From Rozella allomycis CSF55 (lineage: Eukaryota), in contig KE561068.1 of assembly GCA_000442015.1 (NCBI GenBank), forward strand, positions 1 through 64,000: a DNA stretch of 64,000 nucleotides, written 5' to 3'. A program made the translations under genes and the position numbers. Under the pieces are notes generated by a model that did not search any database, was not told the DNA's origin, and saw nothing but the letters and a program-made list of their open reading frames with translations. This document shows, one piece after another, positions 27,145 through 46,842 of the stretch (positions are counted from its first letter, which is position 1; every line of letters begins with the position of its first letter).

Positions 27145-30100
27145 ATGGCAGACGTAGCAAGCAAAGCTAATGCTCCCCCTAGTGATCCTAAAAAGAAACC
27201 CGCTCAAACTGCAAGTCTAAACTTGGAGAAGAAGAGGGCGTTGCTGGATCAACGCCATCGCTACCTTCTTGAAAGATTTGCTGAGCAAATTAATGAAAAG
27301 CCCGCCGACTTGGAGAATTCCTTGCTCTACGGGAATAAGATTGAGATACTTAATGAGTTTTTTGCCGCTAATGGGCCCAAAAAAGTGATTTTCTTTTGGC
27401 AACCCCATAAGGTAAACAAACTTTGATGTTGGTATTTTAGGATGAGTGTCAAAAGTCAGGTGCAAAGAATTGTTTGATAGTAACTGATGGTCTTAGAGAT
27501 GGTATGGAAGGTCCCGCTGCTTACTATTTGCGTTTGAACACCAAAGCAATAACTACTGCCAATCTTTATACGGATATCATATATGGTGTCATAAATGAAC
27601 TGCTCCCATCTCTTCGTGATAGTATTAAGAATCTTATTATACCTGCTTTGAATGCTCAAGTAATCCATTTCAAACTATAAGATAGGAAAATTGGGGTGTC
27701 TTGGTTAAGAAGAAAAACGGTCCCATTGAAGAGTTCATGGAGGCTTTGAATAAGTTTGTTGAAACTGTGGATGTTGGTCTTAATAGTCTTAAAGACAACA
27801 TAAGATTGAATTCATCGCCAGTTGACCTTAGTCCATATCGTGCCGCCTCGCAGGTCTTGGTAGGCTCGAATAATCCTGAATTGGTGGGAACACTTGAAGG
27901 TAAACTACTAAAACTAGCGATATCAGGTCTTGTTGGTGAATGGTGTAAGCAGATTGAACAGGTATTGGCTGAAAGTGAGCAAATGAGAAAAGAAGCGGAT
28001 GACATTGGCCCTTACGCAGAATTGTCTCACTGGAAGTCGCGTATGGCAAAATTCAACAGTATCACGGACCAACTGAAGAGTCCTGATTGCAAAACGGTTA
28101 TCAATGTGCTTCATGGTGCAAAGTCTCGTGTGTTGAAGCAGTGGAAAGATTTGGACAACCGTGTTACTGATGCTGCAAATGAATCCAAGGACAATGTAAA
28201 ATATCTTTATACATTGGAAAAATTCTGTGAGCCCCTTTATCGTAGTGATCCCCTTGCAATGCAGCCTTCTCTTCCTGGTCTTATCAATGCTATCAAAATG
28301 ATCTATTCAATTTCAAGATACTACAATACCTCAGAAAGAATGACGTCTTTGTTTGTTAAGATAACTAATCAAATGATTACAAGTTGCAAGGAGTATGTGA
28401 ATGAGGATGGTTCCAAATTGTGGGAACATGACCGGGCCAAGTTAATGAGCAAGTTAAATGACTGTTTGAAACTTAATGAAGCTTACCAACGTATATTTCA
28501 TGAAACAAAAGTAAAACAAGTCTTTTATTAGCATAGAAAAAATTACAAGAAAAACCTGAAGAAAAACAATTCGATTTCAGTGAAATGTACATATTTGGAA
28601 AGTTTGATGCCTTTTGTAAAAGAATCCAGAAAGTTGTTGATATGTTTGATGTTATTGAGAAGTTCTCATCTTTGTCAACTCTCGGGGTTGAGGGAATGGA
28701 TTCATTGAATAAGAGATTTGATGGTATCATGAATCAAATTAAAAGAAAGCCTTATGATATGTTGGATCACAGAAAAATGGTAAGCATTGACTTTGATTCA
28801 CAACCATAGGAATTTGATACGGATTATGCAACATTTAAAAAGCAAATAGCTGATCTTGAAAGTGGTTTACAGCAATTTGTTGATGGTCTTTTCTCTAATA
28901 TTTCTAGCACTGAACGTTCATTGGAGCTCTTGCAAAAGTTTTCAAAGATTCAAGGCTTACAAATTGATTTGGAATCTAAATATCAAGCAATATTTGTCTA
29001 TTATACAAAACGTGATCTTGAAGCGTGCAGAAAGGCGTATCAAAAGTATAAAGAGAGTCCACCAATTGCCAGGAATACACCCCCTGTAGCTGGAAGTATT
29101 TCATGGGCACGTCAGTTGTTCAGAAGGATCGACCGCCCTATGCAAATGTTTAAGAATTGCCCATCCGTTTTGTCTTCTTCAGATGCAAAGAAACATATCA
29201 GAAATTTTAACATGCTAGCTTCTGCGTTGATTGAATTTGAGTTGTTGTGGCATAGAAGCTGGTTGAAGGCCGTGGACTTGGCTAAAATTGGGCTTCAAGC
29301 AACCGTGCTGGTTATCGATGCTGATACGTCCAAGGTGTATGTGAACTTTGATCCGCAAATATTGCAGTTGATTCGTGAGACTAAATGTATTCAGAGAATG
29401 GGACTTGAAATACCTGAAATGGCTAAATTGATGTGTTTGAAAGAAGCCGACTTGAAGGAAACCTACATGATGCTTCATCAAATATTGCGCAAAAAGTCTT
29501 CCTTGATATCCCGAATTCCACAAGTGTTAATTAAAGCTATGACGCCTCATATTGAAGAGTTGGATAAGGCTATTCAACCAGGATTGACATCCATCACGTG
29601 GACATCATTGAATTTGAAGAATTACATTTTAAATGTTCAAAAGAATCTTGAAAGACTAGAAGAGCTGACTGATAAAGTGCTTGATGTTAATGATTGTAGA
29701 ATTAATTCTGGACTGCAAAGAATTGCTGAAACTTGCTTGTGTGATGTTCCTTCTGAACATGAGCAATGGACTATTGAAGAGTTGGTGCAACGTTCTGAGA
29801 AGTGTTGTTCTCAAGTAGCAGAAGTGATTAATAGGAAGAGTGCGATGATTGAAATTGCATGTAATGATCTTATAAATATCCTGAAAACCAATTTGAGTGA
29901 GCAGAAAAAGGTTGAAATGAGTTCGGTTTATGAAGACGTGTTTAATTATTTCAATCATAAGATGGCTGACTCTCTTGTTCAAAGCACTAGAGGTTCGTTA
30001 GATTTGATAAAGACCAGGCTCGGAAGTGTGTCTAGTCAGTACGGAAAGGCTTTCAACCAAAAACCATTCTTCAAGGCAGAATTAATCTTGTCTATACCCA

Positions 30101-33100
30101 ATGTTGTAGTTTCTCCTAAATTGGAAGATATTCAAATGGCTTTGAATAAGACGTCGACGATGATTCTTGAAATTTCCAAAAAGATAACTGTATGGGGCCA
30201 AAGTTCACAAGGCGAGAGAAACTATTTCAGTGAAGTCTCTAATAATAAGGATGTTGTGAAAGTTATAATTGCACTGAATTCTACTATAAATACGACCAAG
30301 AAGGATGTTGAAACGCATCGTGAGCAGTTTGGAAAATTGGACAATCTTTGGAAAGAGGATCGTAATGAGAGTATTAAAAAGTTTTTGGAGACGAATCCTA
30401 CGCATCATGATTTTGAGAATGAAATTAACAGATATGAGATTGCCGAGAAGGAAGTTATGGAGATTATGCCAACGACGCAAATCAGTTCTGTGTTGATATC
30501 AGCTGAGCCGTTGAAGATTGCATTGTTGACTGAGACAAAGGCGTGGAAGCAGGCGTATGGATTTAATTTGAATGCCAAGGTGAAAAAGGATATGGAAGAG
30601 TTGATTGAATATATGGATAATAAAACTGTTAGATTGAATAGGAAGATTGTGGATATTGATGATATTAGACAAGCATGTCAGACACTTGCTGAGATAAGAG
30701 AGGCTGAAGTGAATATTGATATGAAGATATTGCCTATTGAAGAGTCTTATCATTTGTTGACAAAACATGGCATATCGGTGTCAAGGGAAGAAACCGAAAT
30801 GGTGGATTCGTTGAGATATAGTTGGAAAAAGTTGAAACAGTTGGTGATTGATGTTCAGGCGCATTTGACCAAAGTTCAGCCGACATTTAAGAATGATTTA
30901 GTACAAACTGTTCAAAAGTTTGCAGTTGAAGTTGATGAATTTTCAAAGGAATACAATGAGAAAGGACCGATGGTTTCCACTATAACACCAAAGACTGCAA
31001 GTGAGAGGTTGATTGTGTTTCAAAGATCTTTTGATGAAATTAATAGAAAATGGGAAACTTATTCAGCTGGAGAAGAATTATTTGGATTGTCTGTTACTCC
31101 ATTCCCATCGCTGGTTAAAATGAAGAAAGAATTAAAGTTGTTGCAAAATTTGTATGGATTGTATAACGCAGTGTTGGAGAAAGTTAGAGTTTGGCATGAA
31201 ATGTTGTGGACTGAAGCAGAATTTGAGCCAATAATGAACCAGCTGAATGACTTTGCAGCGCGTTGTAGAAAGCTTCCAAAGGCAATTAAAGATTGGGATG
31301 CATTTCAAACTTTGAATAATTTGATTAATGATTTTCTGGCGACTGTTCCATTGTTGGAATTGATGTCACATAAAGCTATCCAGCAACGTCATTGGGATGC
31401 GATCATGGAAGTGACAAAAACAACATTCAATTTAGACCCAGATGTTTTTTGCTTGAAGAATTTGATGGATGCGCCTTTATTGAAGTCATCTGAAGAAATT
31501 GAAGAAATTTGTACGTCTGCAGTTAAGGAAGCTGATATTGAGATTAAATTGAAAGCGATCGTTAATGAATGGACAGATAAAGAGTTTACATTTGCTCCAT
31601 TTAAGAGCAGAGGGTATTTGGTGTTGAAGCCGGCAGCTATATTGGAGATTATAACACAAGTTGAAGACAGTTTGATGGGACTTGGATCTTTAATGAGCAA
31701 CCGTTATAATGCCCCTTTTAAGAAGGATATTCAATCGTGGGTAGCTAAACTTTCAACTTGCAGTGAAATTATTGAGAATTGGTTGGCTGTCCAGAATTTG
31801 TGGATATATTTGGAAGCGGTGTTTGTTGGTGGTGATATTGCTAAACAGATGCCAAAAGAAGCAAAAAGATTTCAAAATATTGATAAAAGTTGGTGTAAAA
31901 TTATGGCTAGAGCGTTAGAGAATCCAAATGTGATTACATGTACAGTTGTTGATGATACCCTTGCCAATTTGTTGCCAAGTTTAACTGAGCAATTAGAGTT
32001 ATGTCAAAAGTCACTTTCAGGATATTTGGAGTCTAAAAGAAGTTTGTTTCCTAGATTCTATTTTGTTTCTGATCCAGCCTTGTTGGAAATTCTTGGACAG
32101 GCCAGTGATTCACATACAATCCAGGCGCATTTGAAGTCTGTGTTTGATAATGTTCAAACGGTGCAATTTCATGATAAAGAATATGATAAAATATTGGCAT
32201 TGGAATCTAGTGAAGGAGAAAGACTTCCATTGAGCAAGCCAGTAATGGCACAGGGGAATGTTGAAACATGGTTGGGTAATTTATTGCAGTGGATGCAGAT
32301 TACTGTTAATGATGTGATTAGAGAAGCTGTTGTTAGAATGAATGAAATGACATTACAATCTTTTCTTAATGAATATCCAGCGCAGATAGGTCTTTTATGT
32401 TTACAAATTCAATACACTACTATTTGTGAAGATGCATTGACAGCCTCTAAAAGTGATAAAAAAGCAATGGCGAATGCTAACCAAAAAGTGTCAGAAATAT
32501 TGAGCACATTGATTGAATTTACTACACAAGATTTGAATAAGATGGATAGAGTCAAGTATGAAACGTTGATTACAATTCAAGTGCATCATAAAGATGTTTT
32601 TGAAAAACTGTTCAAGACGCATATTAAATCACCGTTGGATTTTGAATGGTTGAAACAGTGTAGATTTTATTGGAGAGATGTTCTTGATTGCTGTATTGTT
32701 TCTATTACTAATTTTGACTTTAAATATAACTGTGAATATTTGGGATGTACTGATAGATTGGTTATAACTCCATTGACTGATAGATGTTATATTACATTGG
32801 CACAGGCACTTGGCATGTCACTTGGTGGTTCACCTGCAGGTAACTATATTGCTCATATTTTATAAAGGACCTGCTGGAACAGGTAAAACAGAAACCGTCA
32901 AGGATATGGGCAAAGCGCTTGGAAAATGGGTTGTCGTGTTCAACTGTTCAGATCAAATGGACTATAGAGGTCTTGGTAGAATATTTAAAGGTTTGGCGCA
33001 ATCTGGCTCATGGGGATGTTTTGATGAGTTTAATAGAATTGAATTACCAGTCTTGTCGGTAGCTGCGCAGCAGGTTGGTTGTGTGTTGGCTGCTAGAAGG

Positions 33101-36100
33101 GAAAGAAAGAAACAGTTTGTGTTTACTGATGGAGAGACTGTTGATTTGAACCCTGAAGTTGGATACTTCATTACAATGAATCCTGGGTACGCTGGGCGTG
33201 TAGCGTTACCAGAGAATTTGAAGACACATTTCAGATATGTAGCAATGGTAATACTTAATGTCAATTTTTATTAAAGATGGTGCCAGATAGACAGATTATT
33301 ATAAGAGTAAAGTTGGCTGGCTGTGGTTTCCAAAACAATGTTATTCTAGCTAGAAAGTTTTTCGTATTGTACAGATTGTGTGAAGAACAATTATCAAAGC
33401 AAGTCCATTATGACTTTGGGTTGAGAAACATTTTATCGGTGTTGAGAACATCAGGTGCTGTGAAGAGGGCGAGTCCCGAAGATTCAGAGAATTTGATTAT
33501 TATGAGAGTATTGAGAGACATGAATTTGTCTAAACTGGTTGATGAAGATGAGAATTTGTTTTTGAGTTTGGTGAATGATTTGTTTCCAGGGCTTGTTGCA
33601 AAGAAGGCTTCGTATCCTGAAGTTGAAAAAGCTATTGAGCAGCAGCTGGTTGAAATGAATCTGGTTAATCATCCACCGTGGGTGTTGAAAGTTATACAGT
33701 TCTATGAAACGTGCAAAGTGAGGCATGGAATTATGATATTGGGGCCAACTGGAGCTGGAAAGACCAAGTGTATTAATGTGTTGTTGAAAGCGATGACTGC
33801 AGTTGCTGAACCACACAAAGAGATTAGAATGAACCCCAAGGCTATCACTGATTACCAAATGTTTGGCAGGTTGGATGTTACTACTAATGATTGGACTGAT
33901 GGAATCTTTTCTGCCATCTGGCGAAAGACAATAAAAAAGAAGGGAGAGTTTATTTGGATTGTGTTGGATGGACCGGTTGATGCTGTGTGGATTGAAAATT
34001 TGAATTCAGTGTTAGATGATAATAGATGTTTGACGTTGGCTAATGGTGATAGAATACCAATGTCGTCTACGAGCAAATTAATGTTTGAAGTGCATAGTTT
34101 AGATAATGCATCGCCAGCTACTGTGTCTCGATGCGGGATGATTTATATTGGCATTGTGGCAATGACTTGGGATATTGTGATTCAGTCTTGGCTTAAAACG
34201 AGACCGAAGAATGAAGCTGAAATATTTGAACCTTTATTTAAAGATACTTTTGGTAAACAGCGTTTTATTTAGTTACAAAGGTGTTGCTGATCAGTTTGTT
34301 AATTTGGAGCTGCATCAAAAGATGGATGTTCCTGCTAATAATTCTATTGTTACTGTAGCTAACTTGTTGGATGGATTGATACCTGCGCAAGAGCAAGGAA
34401 AGGCTATTGATAGAGATCATATGCAAAGACTTTACATTTTTGCATTCTTTTGGTAACTATCCATGATTTGAAATATGACAGGGGTGTTGGAGCGTTGTTA
34501 GAATTAGATGAAAGAAAGAAATTGCAGAGTTTGATATTTGAAAAGTTTCCAGATCTATTGTATCCAAAGATGGAAGATCCAAATGATACAATTTATGAAT
34601 ATTATGTAACAGAGCAAGGAGAATGGAAGCATTGGAAAGAGAGAGTTCCTAATTGGGAGTATCCAACTGATTCTACTCCAGAGTTTTCATCTATTATAGT
34701 TCCTACAGTAGACAATGTGCGTGTTGAATTTTTAATTTCAACGTTATCAAAGCTGGGCAAGAGTGTTTTGCTTATTGGTGAGCCTGGAACAGCCAAGACA
34801 GTTACAATTCAAAGATTTTTAGCTAAATTGGATTCAGATGTTCATTTGAAGAAGAGTTTGAATTTTTCATCAGCAACAACGCCTATGATATTCCAGAGAA
34901 CTGTTGAATCATTTTTGGATAAGAGATTGGGATCAACGTATGGTCCGCCAGCTGGAAAGAAGATGACACTGTTTATTGATGATATATCAGCGCCCGAGAT
35001 CAATGTATGGTTGGATCAACCTACAGCTGAAATTCTGCGCCAGCTGGTTGAATACCAAGGAGTTTACAATTTAGATAAGCCTGGTGACTGGACATCCATT
35101 GTAGATTTGCAATTTCTGGGAGCCATGATGCACCCCGGTGGTGGCAGAAACAATATTCCAATGCGACTGAAGCGACATTTTAATATTTTTAACTGCACGA
35201 TTCCATCTGATGTGTCTGTTGACAAAATCTTTGGAACAATGCTGAGTGGCCATTTTCATGAAAAGCGAGGATTTCCTGAAGATGTTAGACAACTAGTTAC
35301 AAAGATTCCGAGTCTGACGCGTAAATTGTGGCAAGCAACCAAGACTAAAATGCTCCCGACGCCTGCTAAATTCCATTATATTTTCAATTTAAGAGATTTG
35401 AGTAGAATTGTAGAAGGGATGTTGTATTCCACAAGTGAAGTTGTGAACACTGCAAAGACATTAATGCTGTTGTGGGAGCACGAGTGTTCGAGGGTTTTGC
35501 CTGATAGATTTACAACGAATGAAGATATTGAATGGTTTAATAAGACTGTGTTGAGTGTTGTTAATAAGGATTTGGGGCTGGAATATTCAAAGTATATTCA
35601 GCAGAGAGCTTATTGGGTTGATTTTCTTAGAGATGCGCCTGAAGTTGAAGAGGGATCGGAGGAGGAGCCTGAAATGCCTAAAGTTTATGAAATGATTCCG
35701 TCGTTTGATCATTTGAGGGATAGATTGCAGTTTTTTATGAGACAGTATAATGAAACTGTAAGAGGAGGGAAAATGGTAAATTTATTTGTGTAATGTTAAT
35801 TATAGGTAAATTAATTCAGTGATTTTGATTGTAGGATTTAGTGTTGTTTGAAGATGCAATGAAACATATTGTAAAGATTAGTAGAATTATAAGAACACCA
35901 AGAGGTAATGCTCTGTTGGTTGGTGTTGGTGGAAGTGGAAAACAATCATTGACTAAATTAGCTTCTTACATTGCAAGAAACCAAATCTTCCAAATAACAA
36001 TTTCAAAGAACTACAATGCATCAAATTTAATGGATGATTTAAAGTTTATGTACAAGCTAGCAGGGTTACAAGGAAAGCCAGTTACATTTATATTCACTGA

Positions 36101-39100
36101 TAATGAAATCAAGGAAGAAACATTTTTAGAATTTATTAATAACATGTTAACATCAGGAGAAGTATCAAACTTGTTTCCAAAAGACGAAGTTATCATGATT
36201 TCATCCGACATGAGACCGATAATGAAGAAAGTCAGACCCCAAACAATTGATACAAATGAAAATTTATGGCAATTCTTTATTGACAGAGTCAAGAGCAATC
36301 TACACATAGTTTTATCATTCTCGCCTGTTGGAGACAAGTTTAGAAACAGAGCATTGAAGTTCCCTGGACTGATTAGTGGTTGTACAATGGACTGGTTTAC
36401 TAGATGGCCAAGTGAAGCGTTGAGAGCTGTTTCAGAGAAATTCTTGCAAGAATTTGACATTACATGTTCAGAGCAAGTCAAGATGGAAGTTGTTAACCAT
36501 ATGGCCTTTGTGCATGATTCTGTCACTGATATGTGTCAGCAATACTTTTTGCAGTTTAGAAGAAGCACCCATGTCACTCCAAAATCGTATCTAAGTTTTA
36601 TTAATTCTTACATGTCATTGTATAGCAAGAAGAGGAGAGAAGTTGGCGAGTTGAGTGACAGAATGAATATGGGGCTGTCTAAACTATTGGAAGCTACTAA
36701 ATCTGTTGCTGTGTTGAAAGAACAGTTGATTGTTAAAGAAAAGGATCTTGTTGTCGCCAGCAAGGAAGCCGATATTGTTCTAGTTGATGTGTCTGCTGCC
36801 ACTGCCGATGCTGAAAAGGTTAAAGAGGCAGTTTTAAAAGTCAAATTGAAGTCTGAGAGTATTGCGAATGCTATCAAAAAGGATAAAGAAGAAGCCGAAG
36901 GACAATTGGAAGCAGCCAGACCAGCGTTGGAGGAAGCAACAAAGGCATTGAATTCTATTCAGCCAGCGCATATTTCAACAATAAGAAAACTAGCTAAACC
37001 TCCACATCTGATTATGAGGATTATGGATGCTGTGCTGATTTTGCAAAAGAGGAGAATTGATGCTGTTATTCCTGATCCTGAGAGACCCTGTGTTAAACCT
37101 TGCTGGAGTGAATCTTTGAGATTAATGTCGCAGAGTGATTTCTTGTCTTCTTTAATCAACTTTCCATGTGATGAAATTAATGCAGAGACTGTGGAGCTGT
37201 TGGATCCTTACCTTGAAATGCCAGATTTTAATTTGGAAGGTGCAAAGAAGGTGTCGGCTGATGTTGCAGGTAACTTTTAATGTTGAAATTCACATTTAGG
37301 TTTAGCATCGTGGGTTAGAGCAATGTCATTCTATTACACTATCAATAAAAAGGTTATTCCGTTGAAAATGAATTTAGCAGTGCAAGAAAAGAAGTTGGAG
37401 ATTGCGATGGCTGATTTGAACAAGGCTCAAAAGACTTTGGATGAGAAGCAAGCTGAATTGGATGTGTTTAAACAGAAATACAATGCTGCTATAACAAATA
37501 AACAGGCGTTGCAAGATGATGCTGATTCTTGCAAGAGAAAGATGACTGCTGCAACTGCGTTGATTAATGGATTGAAGGGAGAGAAAGATAGATGGACATT
37601 GCAAAGCAAAGAGTTTGCAGAGCAGATTGGAAGACTTGTTGGTGATGTTATTCTGGCTACAGCATTCTTGTCGTATTCTGGGCCGTTTAATCAGACGTTT
37701 AGAACCCAGTTGCTGTCTATTTGGAAGGAAGATTTGAAAAAGAGAAAGATTCCGTTTTCTGCTGATGTTGATATTATCTCACTGCTTGTGGATGGCACTA
37801 CTATTGGAGAATGGAATATACAGGGACTGCCGACTGATGAGTTGTCTATACAGAATGGAATTATTGTTACGCAGGGAACGAGGTATCCACTGTTGATTGA
37901 TCCACAGGGACAGGCGAGATCATGGATCAGGAAGAGAGAAGAGAGCAGAGGGTTGATTGTTACGACATTGGGCAACAAGTATTTCAGACAGCATATTGAA
38001 GATTGTGTGTCGCAAGGGAAGCCATTGCTGATTGAAGATGTGGAAGAATCACTGGATCCAACATTGGACAATATTCTGGAAAAGAATTTGATAAAATCAG
38101 GGAAATCGTTTAAAGTTATTTTTGGAGAAAAGGAATTAGATTTTACTGAAGGATTTTGTTTATTCATTACAACAAAGTTGGCTAATCCGAGATATTCGCC
38201 TGAAATTTATGCAAAGACTTCTATTATTGATTTCACTGTGACGCAAAAGGGATTGGAAGATCAATTGTTGGGAAGAGTTATAATGAAGGAGAAGCAGGAA
38301 TTGGAAACGGAGAGATCCAAGTTGCTGGAAGAGGTTAATTCTAATAAGAAAAAGATGAAAGAATTGGAAGATAATTTACTGCAGAGATTAACTTCAACGC
38401 AAGGGTCGCTAGTAGATGATGAAAGTTTGATTGAAGTGTTAGCCGTTACTAAAACAACTGCAGAGGAAGTGTCTGAAAAGTTGGTGATTGCAGCAAGCTG
38501 AAACGCAAAAGAAAATAACGATTGCGAGAGAAGAATACAGACCAGTGGCTACTAGAGGATCTGTTTTGTATTTTCTTATTGCTGAAATGTCAATGATTAA
38601 TATAATGTACCAAACTTCATTGAGACAGTTTTTGAAGCTGTTTGATGAATCAATGTCGAAATCTAATCCGTCGCCTATTCCTTCAAAGAGAATTCAGAAT
38701 ATTATAGAGTATTGCACGTTGAGAACGTTCAAGTATATGGCTAGATCATTGTATGAAGAACACAAGCTGTTGTTTACATTGTTGTTGGCTTTAAAGATTG
38801 ATATGTTGGCTGGAAAGATTCCGTTTGATGATTTTAGATGTTTTATTAAAGGAGGAGCAGCGTTAGATATTAATGCAGTGATGAAGAAGCCATTTAATTG
38901 GATCTCTGATATGACTTGGCTGAATCTAGTTGCTTTGAGTAAAATTAATTCGTTCCAGGATATTCTCAATCAAGTTGGAAAGAATGAAAAAGCTTGGAAG
39001 AGTTGGTATGAAAAAGATTCGCCTGAAAATGAGCCGTTGCCTGGTGGATATTCAAACACTCTGGATTCATTTAGAAAATTAATGTTGATTCGTTCTTGGT

Positions 39101-41028
39101 GTTTAGACAGAACTATTGTATCTTCTAAACAGTATATTGCTGATTCTCTGGGACAAGTTTATGCTGAATCTCAGGTGCTTGATTTGGATGCAATGTTGGA
39201 AGAGAGTGACAATAGAACTCCTTTGATTTGTTTATTGTCAACTGGTGCTGATCCAACGGCTGATATTGAAAGTTTATCCAAACGACATAAAATTGATATG
39301 AAAGCAATCTCGATGGGTCAAGGACAAGAAGTTCATGCTAGAAAGTTAATGACGAATTACATGACGAATGGTGGTTGGGCTCTACTACAAAATTGTCATT
39401 TGGGTATTCCTTTTCTTGAAGAATTATTGGTAATGATTCTGGAAACTGAACAAATTCACGAGAAATTTAGATGTTGGATTACTACTGATGTGAATGAAAA
39501 ATTTCCTATAAATTTATTGCAAGTTTCTATCAAATTTACGAATGAACCACCTAGAGGTATTAGAGCTGGATTAAAGAGAACTTATGGTTGGTTAACTCAA
39601 GATATGTTGGGTAAAATATATTCCTTCAAGTTTATTCTTAGATATTTCTGCTAGACCTCAGTACAAACCATTGATTTATGCTATTGGATTCTTACATACT
39701 ACTGTTCAAGAAAGAAGAAAGTTTGGTCCTTTAGGTATCCATTATTATCAATTTCAATTCTAGGTTGGAATATTCCATATGAATTCAATCAATCTGATTT
39801 AGCTGCCTCAATCCAATTCTCTCAAAACCATCTTGATGAATTACAACCAAAGGCTCCTATTTCCTGGACTACCGTTAGATACATGTTCTGTGAAGTTCAC
39901 TACGGAGGACGTGTTACAGATGACTATGACAGAAGACTACTAGTCACTTACGGAAAGACTTGGTTTGGTGATCACATGTTTGCTGACAACTTTCAATTCT
40001 ACAAAAATTACACAATCCCTCATCTCAAATCAATCGACGAGTACAGAAAAGTTATTGAAGAAGTTCCCCTGGTTGATTCTCCCGAAGTTTTCGGTCTCCA
40101 TCCTAATGCTGATATCTCCTGTCAAACTAAAGAGTCTAATTTGATGCTGGATAATATTCTGTCGATTCAACCAAAAGATTCGGGATCTGGGACTGGTGAA
40201 ACTAGAGAAGATGTTGTAAAGAGAATCGCTAATGATCTTTTAAGCAAACTACCTGAAGATTTTAACAAGCATAAAGTTAAACAAGCTATCGTCAAGCTTG
40301 GTGGTCCAAAACCTTTGAACATCTTTCTTGGTCAAGAAGTTGATAGAATGCAGACAGTCATTATTAAAACAAGATCGATTCTACAAGATTTGAAACTAGC
40401 TATTGACGGTACAATTATCATGAGTCCCCAGTTACAACAATCTCTCGATGCTCTCTATGATGCACGTGTTCCTCTTGCATGGGAAAAAGTTTCTTGGAAA
40501 TCATCAACTCTTGGCTTATGGTTCGCTGAACTCGTCCAAAGAACGCTGCAATTCCAATCATGGCTCTTTGAAGGCAAACCAAACGTATTCTGGCTGTCCG
40601 GCTTCTTCAATCCCCAAGGGTTCCTCACCGCCATGCGCCAGGAAATCACAAGAGCGCATCAAGGATGGGCATTGGATAACGTCAAACTACACACAGAAGT
40701 TTTGCGCCAGATGAAAGAAGATATCACTCAGCCGCCAGCCGAAGGCGTGTACATCCACGGTCTGTTTATTGAAGGTGCTGGCTGGGACAGGAAGAATACA
40801 CGGCTGGTTGATTCGCAGCCCAAAGTCATTTACATGCAGATGCCCATTGTTCATGTGTCCGCTATCAACTCGACGGAAGACCGCGATCCCAGGTTCTATC
40901 AATGTCCGGTTTACAGGAGACCTAATAGGACAGATCTCAATTATGTGTTTGATGTGGAATTGAAGACTCAGCAGAATCCTGATTATTGGATTTTGAGAGG
41001 AGTTGCGATGCTGTGTTCTACAACTTAA
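27145..41028 (+). CDS. DNAH5: axonemal outer-arm dynein heavy chain (DNAH5/8, gamma-type), 13 introns and one apparent frameshift near 38495
   Basis: P-loops [26 protein letters not shown] and [24 protein letters not shown]; ends [11 protein letters not shown]. Confidence 0.95.
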
Positions 41029-41163
41029 TAAATGGATTTTTAGTGATGAATTGTTTATTTCTTTTTGTGATAATGTAGATTATAATTTATAGTTGTCAAT
41101 TGAGTGGTTCTCCGTTCTTGCCTCTTGGTCAGTTAGCCTCGGAGTTTAAGATTTGGAGATGTG

Positions 41164-41198
41164 CTCCAACTTCCAAGTTCCAACCTCCAAATTCCAAT
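41164..41198. repeat. 5 tandem heptamers YTCCAAN
   Basis: ctccaac ttccaag ttccaac ctccaaa ttccaat, preceded by an inverted copy ATTTGGAG. Confidence 0.8.
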
Positions 41199-41326
41199 AT
41201 AAAAAGTCAAGGTGCTTTAAATTTAATATGAGGACAATCACATTGAGATCAAAACTAGCTAATGAGAAATAATGCTAATATCAATGATACATATGTGCTC
41301 AATGCCTTGAATTTTATCTCAGCCAC

Positions 41327-42501
41327 ATGCCACGCAAACAAACGGACTATTATGATATTGCAGAGATATCATCAGATACTTTGTTAAGAGAATTTGAAAA
41401 GAAGTATCAGGAGTGCAACGAAAATGCTGAACCAACTGAACACGAAAAGGTGTAAACTATTTTGCTCTCACAAAAAATAGTGTCAAAAAGTGGGAACAAT
41501 GGTGTGAAGAGCATGAACATGATCCAAAAGAAATTTCAACAGAAACAGTTTTGCAAATCAAAGATTTTTTACATCATGAATGTGGCAAAGTGGTAGTGTG
41601 GAATTCGGTAATTTCACAAATCTAAAGTTGAAAAGTTCAATAAAGCAAAGAAGATAAAGTCTGACATAGGAAAATATTTGAAATATGAGAATCCCGAAAT
41701 GATTATTAAGGGACCTTGGAATACAGATACGAACACAGGAAATCCGGCGTTGTCAAAAATGTTGACTGTGGAACTTCAAAAAATTAAACGTCTGGTTCAA
41801 AATCGAAAAAGCGTTGTAAGCACTAAACGTGCAATTGATGAATTGGAAATGAAAGCATTGTTTTCGCATTTGACAAAACTGGAAGATACAAAACCAAACA
41901 CCGCATGCATGTTCAAATGCATGTACATCTTAATGTTTATGTGTATGTTGGATTTCGATGATGTAACCCGTATTATGATAGAATGGTTCAAAATACCTGG
42001 AGATGATAAAAATAGTTTGATTATGGAATTTCCTTTAAGGCAACATGTCCAAAATAGTGATGGTAATGACATAAGTTGATGCAAATAGTATTACATGGTT
42101 TTTCCTTATACAGGGCAGACAAAAAGAATATCCATCTTTGTCCAATTACTTGGGTTAACATTTGGTTAGCAACAATTAGAAAGCTTAAAGGTCCTTTGTT
42201 TGTGAATATATCTGAGAATGATGAAGTTATACGAGAATCTCCAATAACCAGAGATTTCTTTGTGACGCAGTTTAATCATCATTTGCAAGCAATAGGCCTA
42301 GATGCCGTTTGGTTTGACACAAAATCCTTTAGCAAGGGTAGCGTTCAATTTTTTTATAGAAAGGGTTTTGAAATCGTTGAAATACTGCATTGGTCGGGGC
42401 AATCAAAATCATTTAATGAAAATGTTATTGCGGAATATATTAGAGGCCAGAAACGAATTAGTGGCGAAGCCTTAATGAGACAATTGGGCCTTGGCCCGTA
42501 A
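41327..42501 (+). CDS. Crypton-like tyrosine-recombinase-fold protein with degenerate catalytic residues, 3 introns
   Basis: KKWEQWC, GNPALS, LDFDDV (cf. LRFDE), LCPITW, GPLFV, TKSFSKGSVQ (cf. THSFRRGG.Q), HWSGQS (cf. WGGWS), IAEYI. Confidence 0.7.
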
Positions 42502-42748
42502 TAAAATTTTTATTATCTAAGTTTGGTCATTCATTACACGATGTCTAAAATATTTTCAATTAAGATCAATTATGCCGTGCGCGTAATCCTGGTCTTCATC
42601 TGCAAAATTTTACGGTTGATATATTAAAAAAATTAAAGAGTCCATTAACTGTGAATAATAGATATCGAAAGAAATTTGAGTTTATGTCGTATTGAGACTA
42701 GAAGAACATGAAAAGCAAAACACGGCTACTTTTATAAAACGCATAGCA

Positions 42749-43729
42749 TTATCTATTTATTAGTTCCTCTGCTCCTAGACTGGCGGTAACATTAGTTACA
42801 GTAACTTGTCTAATGGAGTCAATTTCCGCCATCACGGCCTTATCCTCGAATAACTTAGGTATAACTGAAGTCTCTGCCTTGGATGATAAAGCGAGCATCC
42901 CAGTACTCCAGGAGATACAGTCGTATGTAATAAGACCTATCTGTACACCTAAATTGTCTCGATAAACTGCCTCCAAAATTATGGGAATGCAGGCAGTTAT
43001 TGTATTTACTATTAATGAGATCATGCTAATTTTCCCAAACTTGAGCATTCTCTTAAATATTTGCAATACTTGAGAGTTGGCGCCTTTTGACATGTCTTGA
43101 ACAATTTTCTCTAGTTTCGATAGTTCCTTCAAAATCAGTACATATGTAAAAATATATCCCGCAACCAATAAAGTACAGCATAATCTTCTTCCTTGTCTTA
43201 GCATCAAGTATTCATTCAAATCTGTCTTTTGACACATTAAGCATAGTAAAATAAAATCTAGTACAAACACAAATAACAGATAAACAATGCCCTTCAGCTT
43301 AATTGACCTGGCTGCATTTCGATTGCTCGTCACTAAGAAGCTTGTTTTTTCGTACAAGTTGAAGAACAGCCAGGAGCCCGAAAGAGGCAGGAGATAGTAT
43401 ATTACGCTTGACACAACAAAGAATATATACTCAGTATTCATCTTATCGGTTGCCGTCTTTGGAGTTGCTACATCGAACGCCATAAGAATAGGCATAATTG
43501 AACCAAAGAGGTACATAGCGGCAGCTGTGAATAAGCTGTAGTCAAAGGCAGTGAGTTTTTTAAAGTTAATTTTTGTTATAATCATAGCACGAACTACAAA
43601 CATGAAATTGATGAAAAAGATTCCGCTATAAACTAGAGTTGCAATCTGTACAGAGTAGGAGTTAAAACAAGCAATTGGAGATGTGTTTACATGCCTATTG
43701 CAAAATTGATATGTGTACTCGTCTCTCAT
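42749..43729 (-). CDS. orphan 7-TM membrane protein (start uncertain)
   Basis: Seven hydrophobic segments in an intronless ORF of about 326 aa. Confidence 0.7.
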   Translation of the reverse strand: MRDEYTYQFCNRHVNTSPIACFNSYSVQIATLVYSGIFFINFMFVVRAMIITKINFKKLTAFDYSLFTAAAMYLFGSIMPILMAFDVATPKTATDKMNTEYIFFVVSSVIYYLLPLSGSWLFFNLYEKTSFLVTSNRNAARSIKLKGIVYLLFVFVLDFILLCLMCQKTDLNEYLMLRQGRRLCCTLLVAGYIFTYVLILKELSKLEKIVQDMSKGANSQVLQIFKRMLKFGKISMISLIVNTITACIPIILEAVYRDNLGVQIGLITYDCISWSTGMLALSSKAETSVIPKLFEDKAVMAEIDSIRQVTVTNVTASLGAEELINR

Positions 43730-43937
43730 GAGCAATTGGTATCTAAGGGGCACCTCCTCTCCGTTTTTCTATAGCCGACCACTAAGTTGCCAAGGTAATG
43801 ATATTGAAAGGTCTTTGTAGATGAAATTAAATGTTAGAATCGGTTTCTGTGAAGTACCCTTAAAATGTCTAACTTTGATGGGTAAAAGTAACCTTTAAAA
43901 AAGATTATGAAATTAAAGAATTTTATTAATGAAAAAA

Positions 43938-46173
43938 TCACATTCTCTCTAAAGGAACAAGACCGAGCAATTTCAGACCGTTGCTTAAGCATTGCTTGGC
44001 AGAAACAAGAAGAGCAAGACGTGCTTGGGCAAGATTTAATTCCCTATCTTTGACAAAAAGAACATCCAATGCCGATGAAATGGATCTACACAATTGCATA
44101 AGGTAAGAAACGACAACACAAGGCTCGTGAGTTTTAGAAGCTAAAACAACAATTTCAGGGAATTGAGAAATCAAATCAACGAGAGGAAACACACATGGTT
44201 CTACGAGAAGATCAAGATTTAATGTTGAAATGTCTTTTGGTAGAGAAATACCAGCTCTTCTTTCAATGGAGCAGAGACGAGCATGAGCGTATTGAACATA
44301 TGGGCCAGTGTCTCCTTCAAAGGCAAAGAAACGCTTGGGATCAAAGTTGTAATTTTTGATTCTTTTAGCAGACATGTCTTGGATCATAATAGCACTTAAT
44401 CCAAGAACATCAGCAACGTATTCAGGATTTTCAATTTGAGCATATTTTTCAGGGGTTGATTTCATAACTTCGTGCATAATATCTTTGGCTTCTTCTAAGA
44501 TTTGTTCTAGAAAGACTACTGTTCCTGCTCTAGTAGACATCCCCATTACAAGACCAAAGTTGATGTGATGGCATTTTGAATGCCAATCAAAGTTTGCCTT
44601 TTCAAGTATTTTGAACAATTGTTGCAAATGAAGATCTTGTTGAGAAGCAACAACATAAAACATTTGATCAAAGTTGAATGTTTTTTGGCGATCAATAGCG
44701 GCTGCAACATCTCTTGTCAAGTAAAGAGTCGTTCCATTGGACTTTTGCAGAACTGCAACGCCTAATTTATCTTCATTTAAATCTGCAATCAAAGCACCAT
44801 TATCTTCTTTAACTAGTTTTTTCTCCTTTAATATTTTCAATGCATCTTTCATTCCTTGTTCGTACAATGATTCTCCTGAATAGATATCAAATTCAACATT
44901 CAATCTAGAATAAAGTTCTTTATACTTTTCAATGCTGAGATCTCTAAACCTTTGCCATAACGATAAAGCCTCTTCATCACCCTTTTCCATCCTTGCAAAA
45001 TAATCACGTGCTAGGTCATGAATAGTTTCATCTTCCTTTGCCAATTTCTAATTTTATCGTGAATTTAAATTTACATTAATTTCAACATAAACATTGTACA
45101 AATGTTTAATTGGATCTTTTTGAAGTTCTTCCTCACTTCCAAATCTCTCAAAGCCAATCGCTAACAATCCGTATTGCTTTCCCCAATCACCAAGATAATT
45201 CATTCCAACAACTTTATAACCATTAAATATAAAAACTTGTTTCAAAAAGTTTCCAATAATGGTAGATCTTAAATGTCCTACATGAAATGGTTTAGCAATA
45301 TTTGGTGAAGAGTACTCAACAACAATTGTTTTCCCTTCACCCCCTTTGTTCTTTCCATATTCAGAATTCTTGGTCAAAGCTTCCATTATCACCTTGTTTC
45401 TAAAATCATCCTTATTGGCGCGAAAATTGATGAATGTTCCAATTACATTGCATTCCACAATCAAATCATCAGTAATGTACTTTAAAATCACAAATAAATC
45501 AATTTACCTTTTCTTTGATAAATTTAGCCAACTCATTTGGCTTTTCTTTCAACTTCAACTTGAAGGAATTCAATGAAATATCACCATGATCAGCTTGCTT
45601 GGGTTTCTCTAATGATTCAAACACAACAGTAGGATCAATCTTTAAAAGAATTCCAACTTTCATTGCAACAGCATACTTAAACTCATCAAACACAGATTTC
45701 GTTGCTGTTGGAACTTGGAGCCTCAAAGTTTGTCTGATTATAGGATGCTTATGCAAATCCTTCCAGTACGCGCAAAGAGAACCACCCAACTCAAAAGATT
45801 TCAAAGTCATAGTCTCATAAATAAAATAATCTAAAAACGTCGGTGACTTTGAATTCAAATGTTTCGCATTAGAACTTAACACCGATGCAAAATCACTCGC
45901 ACTGGCATTTTTTCCTGACATTTCAACAGTCTTAAGCAACACACTAAGCTTTTCCTGTCCCAAAGAGTAATCTCCACCAAGAATATACGCTGCGACACCT
46001 AGAGATGAACTCAAGTATTCAGTATTTCCACACTCATCCTTGACTTGGAACTGGTTCTTCTTGCAAGAAAAATCTAATTCGTGTGAAAACAAAGATGGCT
46101 TCTCACAGAACAGACAAAGTGCAGCAAGAGGAGCTTGTAGTCGATTAACGTACCATTTCGAAAGGCTTGTCAT
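43938..46173 (-). CDS. RARS1: arginyl-tRNA synthetase with N-terminal extension, 2 introns
   Basis: VEYSSPNIAKPFHVGHLRSTIIG, NYLGDWGKQYG, GMSTRAG, GDTGPYVQYAHARL, ends LERM. Confidence 0.97.
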
Positions 46174-46842
46174 TTCTTTTCGTGGCGCAGATGCCTTTTT
46201 CGATTTTCGATCAGCAATGCGACACACATTTTTATCGCTATATATCGACTAACTCTTATATTTTCAAAATATGTCATCTGAGATTATGCTACTATTACGG
46301 ATAACGGAAGACAAATGAGTAAAACCTCCAGCTTCCGCTAACCCAAAAATCGAACATATGCATACAAAGTGAAATAAATAGATATATCGAAAACCATCCC
46401 ATTGCTAATGTTTAACTTTGATTTTTATAGTCTCTCATATTGCCGATTTGCAATTTTGACGAGTAACACCATAACCGCATAATCCAAAACTATATCATTT
46501 CTTATATCGAGAGTTTCCAATATACTTTGGCATAAATGGGTATGAATAGTTGCTTATTGATTTTTTTAAACAATTTTTGCAGCTTTCACATTCACAATAT
46601 TCGTTAACATTTGGCGCGACCTCCAGTAATACTTGTATCACAAATGTAAAATATGAACAGAATGATTGAATTTGAAAAAGTTATAGTGTATGGATGTCTT
46701 TGTTATTCCACACTCATTCTGCAGCGACGTCTCGCGTATTTTAATTCAACAATTAACAATACATTTAATGAATTTAGTTTTATTTATTATTCAAATCAAA
46801 CTTATCAAAATGTATTTATCTATTTTAAATTTGAAATACTTG

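What the first reader, a model, noticed from the sequence alone, without database searches (positions are those of the whole stretch)
41327..42501. Apparently domesticated, catalytically dead Crypton-like tyrosine recombinase
Seen: an intact, intron-containing reading frame follows the motif order of fungal Crypton-type recombinases. The catalytic positions appear replaced (R to D in LDFDD; HxxR to KSFS; WGGW to WSGQ), while a C-terminal Tyr remains. No terminal repeats were seen. Established: Crypton domestication produced fungal DNA-binding proteins such as Ndc10/Cbf2 and Gcr1-family factors. Inference: an independent domestication into a DNA-binding protein.
Basis: partly seen in the sequence, partly recalled or inferred. 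Interest (0 to 1): 0.7.

Follow-up and report, generated by a model that had tools for sequence, protein, structure and literature searches.

The report
Dead Crypton-like recombinase gene in Rozella
A single gene of the fungal parasite Rozella allomycis encodes a protein with the fold of a Cre-type tyrosine recombinase in which five of six catalytic residues are replaced, so it probably survives as a non-cutting, transposon-derived DNA-binding protein; this kind of domestication is already known in other lineages.

Summary
Window 41327-42501 (+) is Rozella allomycis CSF55 gene O9G_001603 (343 aa as annotated). Pfam and PDB sequence searches find nothing. Profile searches found three Rozella paralogue fragments and four intron-bearing metagenome relatives that carry the motifs LRFDE, RKTNQ, HSFRRGG, W(G/A)GW and a C-terminal Y. 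An AlphaFold model built with these relatives matches Cre at VIA Z 18.0. All 24 chains with Z>=8 are tyrosine recombinases or type IB topoisomerases. hhalign against P1 Cre pairs D180/Q210/K285/S288/Q311/Y323 with Cre R173/K201/H289/R292/W315/Y324. So five of six catalytic residues are lost and Tyr is kept. The reading frame is intact. I propose a better gene model of 363 aa with introns of 29, 28 and 26 nt, matching the 28- and 29-nt introns verified in the neighbouring dynein gene. The gene is single-copy in the window, sits between host genes and has no terminal repeats. "Domesticated DNA-binding protein" remains an inference, because no orthologue and no RNA data could be obtained. This is a new member of a known kind.

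The parts
41327..41451 (+). Exon 1 in the revised model, starting at the ATG. The annotated model ends this exon at 41449.
   Evidence: The encoded N-terminal 72 residues carry a net charge of -12.
41452..41480 (+). Intron 1 in the revised model: 29 nt, GTAAAC...ATAG. The annotated intron is 41450-41490 (41 nt, GTGTAA). Both keep the reading frame.
   Evidence: Its size and donor resemble the verified 28- and 29-nt dynein introns.
41481..41607 (+). Exon 2 in the revised model, encoding the start of the N-terminal helical region (the part with WEQWC).
41608..41635 (+). Intron 2 in the revised model: 28 nt, GTAATT...AAAG. The annotated intron is 41582-41627 (46 nt, GTGGCA). This revision rests only on intron size and donor type.
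   Evidence: No homologue covers this junction.
41636..42062 (+). Exon 3. It encodes the rest of the N-terminal domain (GNPAL motif) and the first half of the catalytic domain. It contains the codons for D180 (41951-41953, in place of Arg I) and Q210 (42041-42043, in place of the beta-hairpin Lys).
42063..42088 (+). Intron 3 in the revised model: 26 nt, GTAATG...ATAG. The annotated intron, 42063-42118 (56 nt), removes 10 codons that resemble coding sequence of paralogue P0007.
   Evidence: In one search the relatives' profile matches from residue 5 of the ORF 42070-42498.
42089..42501 (+). Exon 4 plus the stop codon, encoding the second half of the catalytic domain. Codons: K285 at 42322-42324 (in place of His II), S288 at 42331-42333 (in place of Arg II), W308 at 42391-42393, Q311 at 42400-42402 (in place of Trp/His III) and Y323 at 42436-42438 (Tyr kept).
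41029..41326 (.). Upstream intergenic spacer of 298 nt between the dynein stop codon and the ATG. It is the presumed promoter region.
   Evidence: GC is 0.329. No repeat pair brackets the gene.
42502..42748 (.). Downstream spacer of 247 nt, reaching the 3' end of a convergent gene on the minus strand (42749-43768).
   Evidence: GC is 0.291.

Best explanation
The locus is a single-copy Rozella allomycis gene that descends from a Crypton-like tyrosine recombinase (a eukaryotic element encoding only the recombinase). Copies of that family with intact catalytic residues still exist in the same organism. The protein keeps the two-part recombinase architecture: a helical N-terminal part and a Cre-like catalytic domain. 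It has replaced Arg I, the beta-hairpin Lys, His II, Arg II and Trp III with Asp, Gln, Lys, Ser and Gln, and keeps only the Tyr. Without these residues it cannot activate the scissile phosphate, so it cannot cut or rejoin DNA.

Most likely role (inferred): it is kept by selection as a non-catalytic DNA-binding or DNA-architectural protein. This would parallel Ndc10, the DUF3504 proteins and the phage repressors MrpR and SroF. It may still recognise the recombination sites of its active paralogues.

Shown: fold, family, residue losses, intact spliced frame, local single copy. Inferred: selection, expression, DNA binding.
For: - Fold. An AF2 model built with 14 relative rows has pLDDT 80-90 over residues 140-200 and 240-310. 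In Foldseek against PDB, all 32 listed rows are tyrosine recombinases, with Cre first at E 6.1e-08. VIA-align against 48,161 chains puts Cre first at Z 18.0, rmsd 3.0, 190 residues aligned. All 24 chains with Z>=8 are tyrosine recombinases or type IB topoisomerases.
- Residue mapping. hhalign of A7 against P1 Cre pairs D180-R173, Q210-K201, K285-H289, S288-R292, Q311-W315 and Y323-Y324.
- Relatives keep the ancestral residues: R 6/6, K 7/7, H 5/6, R 6/6, W 5/5, Y 5/5 (alignments).
- The catalytic codons are strongly diverged. They need at least 9 nucleotide changes over 6 codons (1.5 per codon), against 0.60-1.09 per codon at the other aligned positions. Yet the 1,089-nt frame has no stop codon, and its three introns are of the local type. 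This argues for selection on the frame after catalysis was lost.
- Host-like setting. The gene lies 298 nt after an axonemal dynein gene and 247 nt before a convergent gene. It is single-copy in the 64-kb window and has no terminal repeats. Its GC (0.347) and GC3 (0.327) are close to its neighbours.
- P0001 is closer to the Rozella paralogues (30-52% identity) than to the metagenome relatives (20-25%), so it arose inside the lineage.
- Precedents. Non-recombining DNA-binding proteins with this fold appear among the structural hits: SroF Z 10.8, MrpR Z 10.3, QRICH1 Z 7.2, Ndc10 Z 7.1. Domesticated Crypton recombinases are described in passages of PMC3212892.
- Language-model neighbours (leads only) are eukaryotic proteins of about 350 aa carrying PF00589, ALOG, DUF3504 or the core-binding domain.
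Against: - No orthologue was found in any other organism, so purifying selection could not be measured.
- The whole genome is not held. Genome-wide copy number was therefore not tested.
- Only one of the five AF2 models reached mean pLDDT 56.9; the others were 38.8-42.8. The N-terminal 135 residues are below pLDDT 50.
- The hhalign probability is only 32.8% (E 4.6e-4).
- Neither Pfam nor PDB sequence profiles recognise the family.
- The whole revised protein is charge-neutral (pI 7.18), and the catalytic domain has net charge 0. The paralogue fragments are basic (pI 8.9-9.8). This is not what one expects of a strong DNA binder.
- Two of the three introns I propose are supported by intron size and donor type, and one of them (intron 3) also by homology. 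None is supported by RNA.
Confidence: 0.6

Rival explanations
1. The gene is an inactive relic of a Crypton-like element with no host function. Its frame is still open only because it died recently.
For: Paralogues with intact catalytic motifs exist in the same organism on short contigs of 1.2-2.6 kb, as expected of a repeat family. No orthologue and no expression evidence could be obtained. The gene is small and lies in an intergenic gap.
Against: The five catalytic replacements need at least 9 nucleotide changes in 15 nt, including W to Q with 3 changes. That points to a long time without catalytic constraint. Over the same time the 363-codon frame in 35%-GC DNA kept no stop codon and three spliceable introns. 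Structural-core motifs remain shared with the paralogues, up to 52% identity to P0007. No second copy is present in 64 kb.
Confidence: 0.22
2. The protein is a transposon-family regulator. As a catalytically dead subunit, it would bind the recombination sites of the active Rozella copies, or co-assemble with the active enzyme, and inhibit or modulate their transposition. This is a special case of domestication.
For: Active-looking paralogues coexist with it. Tyrosine recombinases act as multimers on paired sites (passage of PMC3212892). Phage regulators with this fold that repress without recombining are among the structural matches: MrpR Z 10.3 and SroF Z 10.8.
Against: The protein is only 30-52% identical to the known paralogues, so shared site specificity or co-assembly is uncertain. 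The ends and sites of the active elements are unknown, because no paralogue DNA was available. Nothing was tested directly.
Confidence: 0.13
3. The protein is not recombinase-derived. On this view it is an orphan helical protein, and the motif resemblance and fold match are artefacts of a shallow alignment and a weak model.
For: Pfam and PDB sequence searches are blank. The single-sequence AF2 model was unusable at pLDDT 38.8. hhalign probability is 32.8%.
Against: All 24 chains with VIA Z>=8, out of 48,161 aligned, belong to the recombinase / type IB topoisomerase superfamily, with Cre at Z 18.0. All 32 listed Foldseek rows are recombinases. In the relatives, all six catalytic positions align in the right order to Cre, and the Arg II to Trp III spacing of 23 residues is the same as in Cre.
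Confidence: 0.03

Closest known systems
Cre recombinase of phage P1 (active tyrosine recombinase)
   Same: Same catalytic-domain fold: VIA Z 18.0, rmsd 3.0 over 190 residues, and Foldseek E 6.1e-08. The order of active-site positions is the same, and the Arg II to Trp III spacing is 23 residues in both. Tyr is conserved.
   Different: Sequence identity is 14-17%. Five of the six catalytic residues are replaced (D, Q, K, S, Q in place of R, K, H, R, W). The gene is eukaryotic and has introns. No lox-like repeats were seen nearby.
Crypton DNA transposons (recombinase-only eukaryotic elements; Goodwin et al. 2003, recalled; Kojima and Jurka 2011, PMC3212892, passages read)
   Same: The relatives of this gene are eukaryotic, have introns and encode recombinase-only proteins of about 350 aa with intact catalytic residues. 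No reverse transcriptase or other Pfam domain was found in 0 of 19 flanking ORFs of the metagenome contigs.
   Different: This locus is single-copy in the window, catalytically dead and has no terminal direct repeats that I could recognise. It has no GCR1_C domain, the mark of the fungal CryptonF group. No named Crypton sequence could be compared, so its group (F, S, A or I) is undetermined.
Ndc10/Cbf2 and Gcr1 of budding yeasts (CryptonF-derived DNA-binding proteins)
   Same: They also have a recombinase-derived fold without a working active site and are used as DNA-binding host proteins (PMC3212892 passages). The structural match to Ndc10 is Z 7.1 (3sqi) and 6.5 (4aco).
   Different: The fold here is much closer to active recombinases (Z 18) than to Ndc10 (Z about 7). 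There is no GCR1_C domain. The protein is much smaller. The lineage is different (Cryptomycota), so this is an independent event. No evidence links it to centromeres.
DUF3504 proteins (KCTD1, KIAA1958, ZMYM2-4, QRICH1, WOC), which are CryptonA-derived
   Same: They are Crypton recombinase domains that lost most of the R-H-R-Y tetrad and are kept as host genes. QRICH1 in the Zincore complex on DNA matches at Z 7.2. Clusters carrying DUF3504 and PF00589 are among the language-model neighbours.
   Different: Pfam DUF3504 does not match. In the DUF3504 genes the Tyr is lost, whereas here it is kept. The protein is not fused to zinc fingers, BTB or other domains.
MrpR (SPbeta) and SroF (phi3T) phage regulators with a recombinase fold
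   Same: They are full-length proteins with this fold that act by binding DNA rather than recombining it. Structural matches are Z 10.3 and 10.8.
   Different: They are bacterial phage proteins with no detectable sequence relationship to this one. Their roles are recalled from the entry titles and my own knowledge, and were not tested here.

Membership tests
Tyrosine recombinase / type IB topoisomerase superfamily | Catalytic-domain fold | tested here: met
   VIA Z 18.0 to Cre. All 24 chains with Z>=8 belong to the superfamily. All 32 listed Foldseek rows are recombinases. The model is confident only over residues 140-200 and 240-310.
Tyrosine recombinase / type IB topoisomerase superfamily | Catalytic residues Arg I, Lys (beta-hairpin), His II, Arg II, His/Trp III and the Tyr nucleophile | tested here: not met
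   The residues here are D180, Q210, K285, S288, Q311 and Y323, aligned to Cre R173, K201, H289, R292, W315 and Y324. Only Tyr is kept. Relatives keep 5 or 6 of the 6.
Tyrosine recombinase / type IB topoisomerase superfamily | Pfam Phage_integrase (PF00589) match | tested here: not met
   No PF00589 match at E<=10 for P0001, its paralogues or the metagenome relatives.
Tyrosine recombinase / type IB topoisomerase superfamily | N-terminal core-binding (SAM-like) domain | tested here: inconclusive
   Residues 1-135 are modelled as helical but with pLDDT below 50. The structural alignments start near residue 135. Clusters carrying the core-binding domain appear only as language-model leads.
Crypton transposons | Element encodes a tyrosine recombinase without reverse transcriptase | tested here: inconclusive
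   At this locus only the recombinase-like gene fits in the 1.7-kb gap between host genes. In the metagenome relatives, 0 of 19 flanking ORFs had a Pfam hit at E<=0.01, but those contigs are only 1.6-3.9 kb. DNA of the Rozella paralogues was not available.
Crypton transposons | Multiple mobile copies bounded by short terminal direct repeats | tested here: not met
   There is one copy in the 64-kb window and no bracketing repeats. Genome-wide copy number could not be tested because no genome is held. This result is expected for a domesticated derivative.
Crypton transposons | Sequence kinship to named Crypton recombinases (groups F, S, A, I) | not testable with these tools
Only language-model neighbours were available.
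CryptonF and its derivatives (Gcr1, Ndc10/Cbf2) | GCR1_C DNA-binding domain | tested here: not met
   No GCR1_C match in Pfam at E<=10. The protein ends about 20 residues after the Tyr.
Domesticated Crypton genes (the DUF3504 type) | Pfam DUF3504 (PF12012) match | tested here: not met
   No match at E<=10.
Domesticated transposase or recombinase genes in general | Intact frame despite loss of catalytic residues | tested here: met
   Both the 343-aa and the 363-aa models are open. Five of six catalytic residues are replaced.
Domesticated transposase or recombinase genes in general | Orthologues at a fixed locus under purifying selection | not testable with these tools
   No orthologue was found outside Rozella allomycis CSF55. 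The second record, P0005, is the same strain.
Domesticated transposase or recombinase genes in general | Expression | not testable with these tools
   No RNA run holding the locus was listed. The one run with the same species label laid nothing.

The most novel reading that the evidence does not exclude
Rozella independently turned a Crypton-like recombinase into a sequence-specific DNA-binding protein. On this reading the protein still recognises the recombination sites of its active sister elements and acts as their repressor, or as a host chromosome-architecture factor comparable to Ndc10. It would be a eukaryotic counterpart of the phage repressors with a recombinase fold, caught at an early stage: a full-length, unfused protein that keeps the Tyr and is still Cre-like at Z 18.
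Probability: 0.15. Interest if true: 0.6.

Novelty: new member of a known kind. Interest (0 to 1): 0.42.

Why it matters
Domestication of Crypton recombinases is known from yeasts (Ndc10, Gcr1) and animals (DUF3504 genes), but those cases are old and heavily remodelled. Here the dead copy and active-looking paralogues coexist in one small genome, and the dead copy is still structurally very close to Cre. That makes it a tractable early-stage case for asking what a recombinase scaffold is kept for once it stops cutting.

It also shows that Pfam misses this whole eukaryotic recombinase family.

Finally, the public gene model at this locus probably uses the wrong splice sites, because Rozella introns can be as short as 28-29 nt.

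Tried and rejected
- Pfam on the four exon pieces and on P0001, P0002, P0006, P0007 and five relative ORFs gave only sub-threshold chance hits.
- PDB sequence searches gave no recombinase. P0001 alone gave 0 hits. Profile A1 gave 1 chance hit. Profile A2 gave 5 chance hits. One relative ORF gave 0 hits.
- Single-sequence AF2 was unusable, with pLDDT 38.8.
- The word-index search with P0001 alone found only P0001 itself.
- phmmer of exon 3 against 1.84 billion representatives gave 4 hits at E<=0.001. Two of them (P0003, P0004) are FN3-repeat proteins that match 24-25 query residues, and I dropped them as spurious.
- The search for related loci with A2 gave nothing: 0 of 155 pattern matches confirmed in metagenomes and 0 of 30 in viral contigs.
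- Alignments A5 and A6, which added N-terminal exon pieces of the relatives, were misaligned by MAFFT and discarded. A4 had a 10-residue misaligned tail. A7, without those pieces, was used.
- The whole genome is not held, so no genome-wide copy count was possible.
- RNA evidence: no RNA holder was listed. The one RNA run with the same species label laid 0 contigs.
- The search of earlier findings returned nothing, by place or by sequence.
The Crypton alignments in those files could therefore not be compared. PMC10799480 (a screen for transposon co-option in fungi) and PMC13465315 (Glomhopper) were seen only as a search listing and as an outline with abstract, respectively.
- I considered that the three "introns" might hide frameshifts of a pseudogene. 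I rejected this because all three can be drawn as 26-29-nt GTAA...AG introns of the type verified next door.

Full report
**What is at the locus.** The window comes from Rozella allomycis CSF55. A search with exon 4 returned one protein among 168 candidates: hypothetical protein O9G_001603, 343 aa, on a 113,517-nt contig (accessions). The annotated exons (41327-41449, 41491-41581, 41628-42062, 42119-42501) translate exactly to that protein, P0001.

The gene lies 298 nt downstream of the last exon of an axonemal dynein heavy chain, which carries Dynein_C and AAA_lid_11 and matches DNAH5-type chains best. It lies 247 nt upstream of the 3' end of a convergent 339-codon ORF. Beyond that ORF is an arginyl-tRNA synthetase gene.

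**Checking the observation.** On its own the protein is an orphan:
- Pfam gives only a sub-threshold chance hit.
- PDB sequences give nothing.
- The word-index search finds only the protein itself among 1,182 candidates.

An exhaustive phmmer of exon 3 against 1.84 billion representatives gave 4 hits at E<=0.001. These were the protein itself, a 145-aa partial Rozella protein P0002 (E 5.4e-21, 39% identity) and two FN3-repeat proteins that I set aside as spurious. A profile of P0001 and P0002 then found two more Rozella fragments among 3,583 candidates: P0006 (188 aa) and P0007 (103 aa). All three fragments come from the second (ROZALSC1) assembly of the same strain, on contigs of 1,220-2,627 nt.

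A metagenome scan seeded with P0006 and P0007 confirmed 4 of 226 pattern matches, giving loci L001-L004. These are eukaryote-like loci whose homologous pieces lie in different frames, separated by introns.

**The family and the residue losses.** In the alignments the paralogues and metagenome relatives carry LRFDE or LRVDE, LPFRKTNQ, (H/Q)SFRRGG, W(A/G)GW and a Tyr about 12 residues later. P0001 has D, Q, K, S and Q at the corresponding key positions and keeps the Tyr. Counting the rows that cover each column, the ancestral residue is present in R 6/6, K 7/7, H 5/6 (Q in P0006), R 6/6, W 5/5 and Y 5/5.

**Is it really a recombinase fold?**
- With alignment A7 (P0001, three paralogues and 11 exon pieces of L001-L004), AlphaFold gave mean pLDDT 56.9. 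The two halves of the catalytic domain scored 80-90 (residues 140-200 and 240-310). The N-terminal 135 residues were below 50, and the other four models scored 38.8-42.8.
- Foldseek against PDB gave 38 matches at E<=0.001. All 32 listed rows are tyrosine recombinases. Of these, 21 are Cre or its engineered derivative Tre (best E 6.1e-08). The rest are XerH, Tn1549 integrase, an MRSA integrase, XerA, another archaeal Xer, XerD and IntI.
- VIA-align against 48,161 representative chains put Cre first, at Z 18.0, rmsd 3.0 and 190 residues aligned (model 135-334). All 24 chains with Z>=8 are tyrosine recombinases or type IB topoisomerases. The DNA-binding regulators SroF (Z 10.8) and MrpR (Z 10.3), QRICH1 (Z 7.2) and Ndc10 (Z 7.1 and 6.5) follow.
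- hhalign of A7 against the Cre translation from phage P1 (locus L005) aligned columns 150-332 with Cre 142-326. Probability was 32.8% and E 4.6e-4. It pairs D180-R173, Q210-K201, K285-H289, S288-R292, Q311-W315 and Y323-Y324.
- The Arg II to Trp III spacing is 23 residues in both proteins.
- That these six Cre residues form the active site is established knowledge, recalled here. The R-H-R-Y tetrad itself is stated in PMC3212892 (passages).

**Gene structure.** The annotated introns are 41, 46 and 56 nt long, with donors GTGTAA, GTGGCA and GTAATG. The annotated third intron removes 10 codons that, in the frame of exon 4, resemble coding sequence of paralogue P0007 just upstream of its NIHLCP stretch.

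In the neighbouring dynein gene I verified two introns. Exon translations on either side match consecutive residues of solved dynein chains:
- 32840-32867 is 28 nt with donor GTAACT. Chain 9fqr_I3 residues 1986-2085 are followed by 2087-2212, with one split codon between them.
- 33248-33276 is 29 nt with donor GTAATA. Residues 2087-2212 are followed directly by 2213-2318.

Further junctions are compatible with introns of 25-30, 51 and 59 nt (inferred only).

If the recombinase-like gene is redrawn with introns 41452-41480 (29 nt, GTAAAC), 41608-41635 (28 nt, GTAATT) and 42063-42088 (26 nt, GTAATG), it gives an open 363-codon frame. Against a profile of the relatives that excludes P0001, this model scores 150.3 bits in one stretch. 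The annotated protein scores 138.7 bits in two stretches, with a gap at the beta-hairpin.

Each alternative splice differs from the annotated one by a multiple of three nucleotides, so the frame is intact under either model. The revision of intron 3 has homology support. Those of introns 1 and 2 rest on intron size and donor type only. No RNA evidence could be obtained.

**Mobile element or host gene?**
- Within 64 kb there is one copy. tblastn of P0001 gives only the locus itself, with the next hits at E>=2.3. The relatives' profile hits only the two ORFs of this gene, with the next hits at E>=0.42.
- No repeat pair brackets the gene.
- GC is 0.347 and GC3 0.327, close to the dynein gene (0.374; 0.345-0.387).
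- P0001 is nearer to the Rozella paralogues (38%, 30% and 52% identity) than to the metagenome relatives (20-25%), so it arose within the lineage.
- The six catalytic codons need at least 9 nucleotide changes from any codon of the ancestral residue (1.5 per codon). The remaining aligned codons need 0.60, 0.93 and 1.09 per codon against P0007, P0002 and P0006.

From this I infer that catalytic constraint was lost long ago, while the frame, the splice sites and the structural core were preserved. That is what selection for a non-catalytic role predicts. A neutral relic in 35%-GC DNA would not be expected to keep them. This is an argument, not a measurement. No orthologue was found with which to compute dN/dS, and the genome is not held, so no copy count was possible.

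**Mechanism.** Shown: a Cre-like scaffold without Arg I, Lys, His II, Arg II and Trp III. It follows from established enzymology of the family (recalled) that such a protein cannot cleave DNA even though the Tyr is present.

Inferred: it acts by binding, either to DNA or to other recombinase-fold subunits. Precedents with the same fold appear (Ndc10, QRICH1, MrpR, SroF) and in PMC3212892.

One point counts against a simple DNA-clamp picture. The catalytic domain has net charge 0 and the first 72 residues carry -12; only residues 73-135 are basic (+8). The paralogue fragments have pI 8.9-9.8. Most of the charge difference in the catalytic domain is explained by the catalytic substitutions themselves.

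**Comparison with known families.** The protein works like, and probably derives from, Crypton-type recombinases. The relatives are recombinase-only proteins of about 350 aa with introns, and no reverse transcriptase or other Pfam domain was found in 0 of 19 flanking ORFs. The language-model neighbours of P0001 are eukaryotic clusters of about 350 aa carrying PF00589, ALOG, DUF3504 or the core-binding domain (leads only).

Strict membership in a named Crypton group is not established:
- There is no GCR1_C, DUF3504 or PF00589 match.
- No reference Crypton sequences were at hand.
- Paper reading closed before the supplements of PMC3212892 could be read.

A DIRS- or Ngaro-type origin for the recombinase is not excluded.

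**Novelty.** Two literature searches found no report of this gene or of Crypton or tyrosine-recombinase domestication in Rozella or Cryptomycota. "Rozella" + "Crypton" gave 1 irrelevant paper. "Tyrosine recombinase" + "Cryptomycota" gave 2 papers, seen as listings only; one of them is a fungal screen for transposon co-option, PMC10799480, whose text I could not read. Catalytically dead, domesticated Crypton recombinases are an established kind, so I rate this a new member of that kind. Its distinctive features are that it is unfused, keeps the Tyr, is still Cre-like at Z 18 and coexists with intact paralogues.

**Verdict.** The "dead Crypton-like recombinase" reading is well supported, at about 0.9 for a recombinase-derived protein that is catalytically dead. 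The "domesticated DNA-binding protein" reading is plausible but untested, and I give the full statement about 0.6. Interest is moderate.

Noticed in passing
window 41450-41490, 41582-41627, 42063-42118: The public gene model (343 aa) probably uses the wrong splice sites. Introns of 29, 28 and 26 nt with GTAA donors give a 363-aa protein that fits the relatives better: 150.3 bits in one stretch against 138.7 in two.
   Followed up: yes
window 32840-32867 and 33248-33276: The axonemal dynein heavy-chain gene has introns of only 28 and 29 nt (GTAACT...AAAG and GTAATA...AAAG). They were verified because the flanking exon translations match consecutive residues of solved dynein chains. Other junctions of the gene suggest introns of 25-30, 51 and 59 nt.
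   Followed up: partly
window 28810-41028 (+), and probably further upstream: A large axonemal outer-arm-type dynein heavy-chain gene. Its best PDB matches are DNAH5-like chains, and it carries the Dynein_C and AAA_lid_11 domains. This fits the flagellated zoospore of Rozella.
   Followed up: partly
window 42749-43768 (-): A convergent 339-codon ORF that looks hydrophobic and multi-pass, with no Pfam match at E<=0.01.
   Followed up: no
window 43938-46248 (-): An arginyl-tRNA synthetase gene in at least two exons, carrying tRNA-synt_1d, DALR_1 and Arg_tRNA_synt_N.
   Followed up: no
P0001 versus P0005 (same locus in the second CSF55 assembly): The two assemblies of the same strain give the same 343-aa model with two amino-acid differences, N31I and S151L. 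The cause could be alleles or amplification and sequencing errors; I could not tell.
   Followed up: no
L001 1896-2240, L002 907-1251, L004 1133-1771: The metagenome relatives end in a short Cys-rich tail (C-x2-C...C-x-C) that the Rozella proteins lack. L003 has C instead of the second R of HSFRRGG. L001-L003 are near-identical copies on three contigs from different samples.
   Followed up: no
L001 3233-3497 and L002 2244-2495: Downstream of the recombinase gene, the metagenome contigs carry a Gly/Glu/Arg-rich repetitive ORF region with no Pfam match.
   Followed up: no
P0006 (Rozella paralogue): P0006 has Q instead of His II (QSFRRGG) but keeps R, K, R, W and Y. Not all Rozella paralogues may be fully active.
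   Followed up: no
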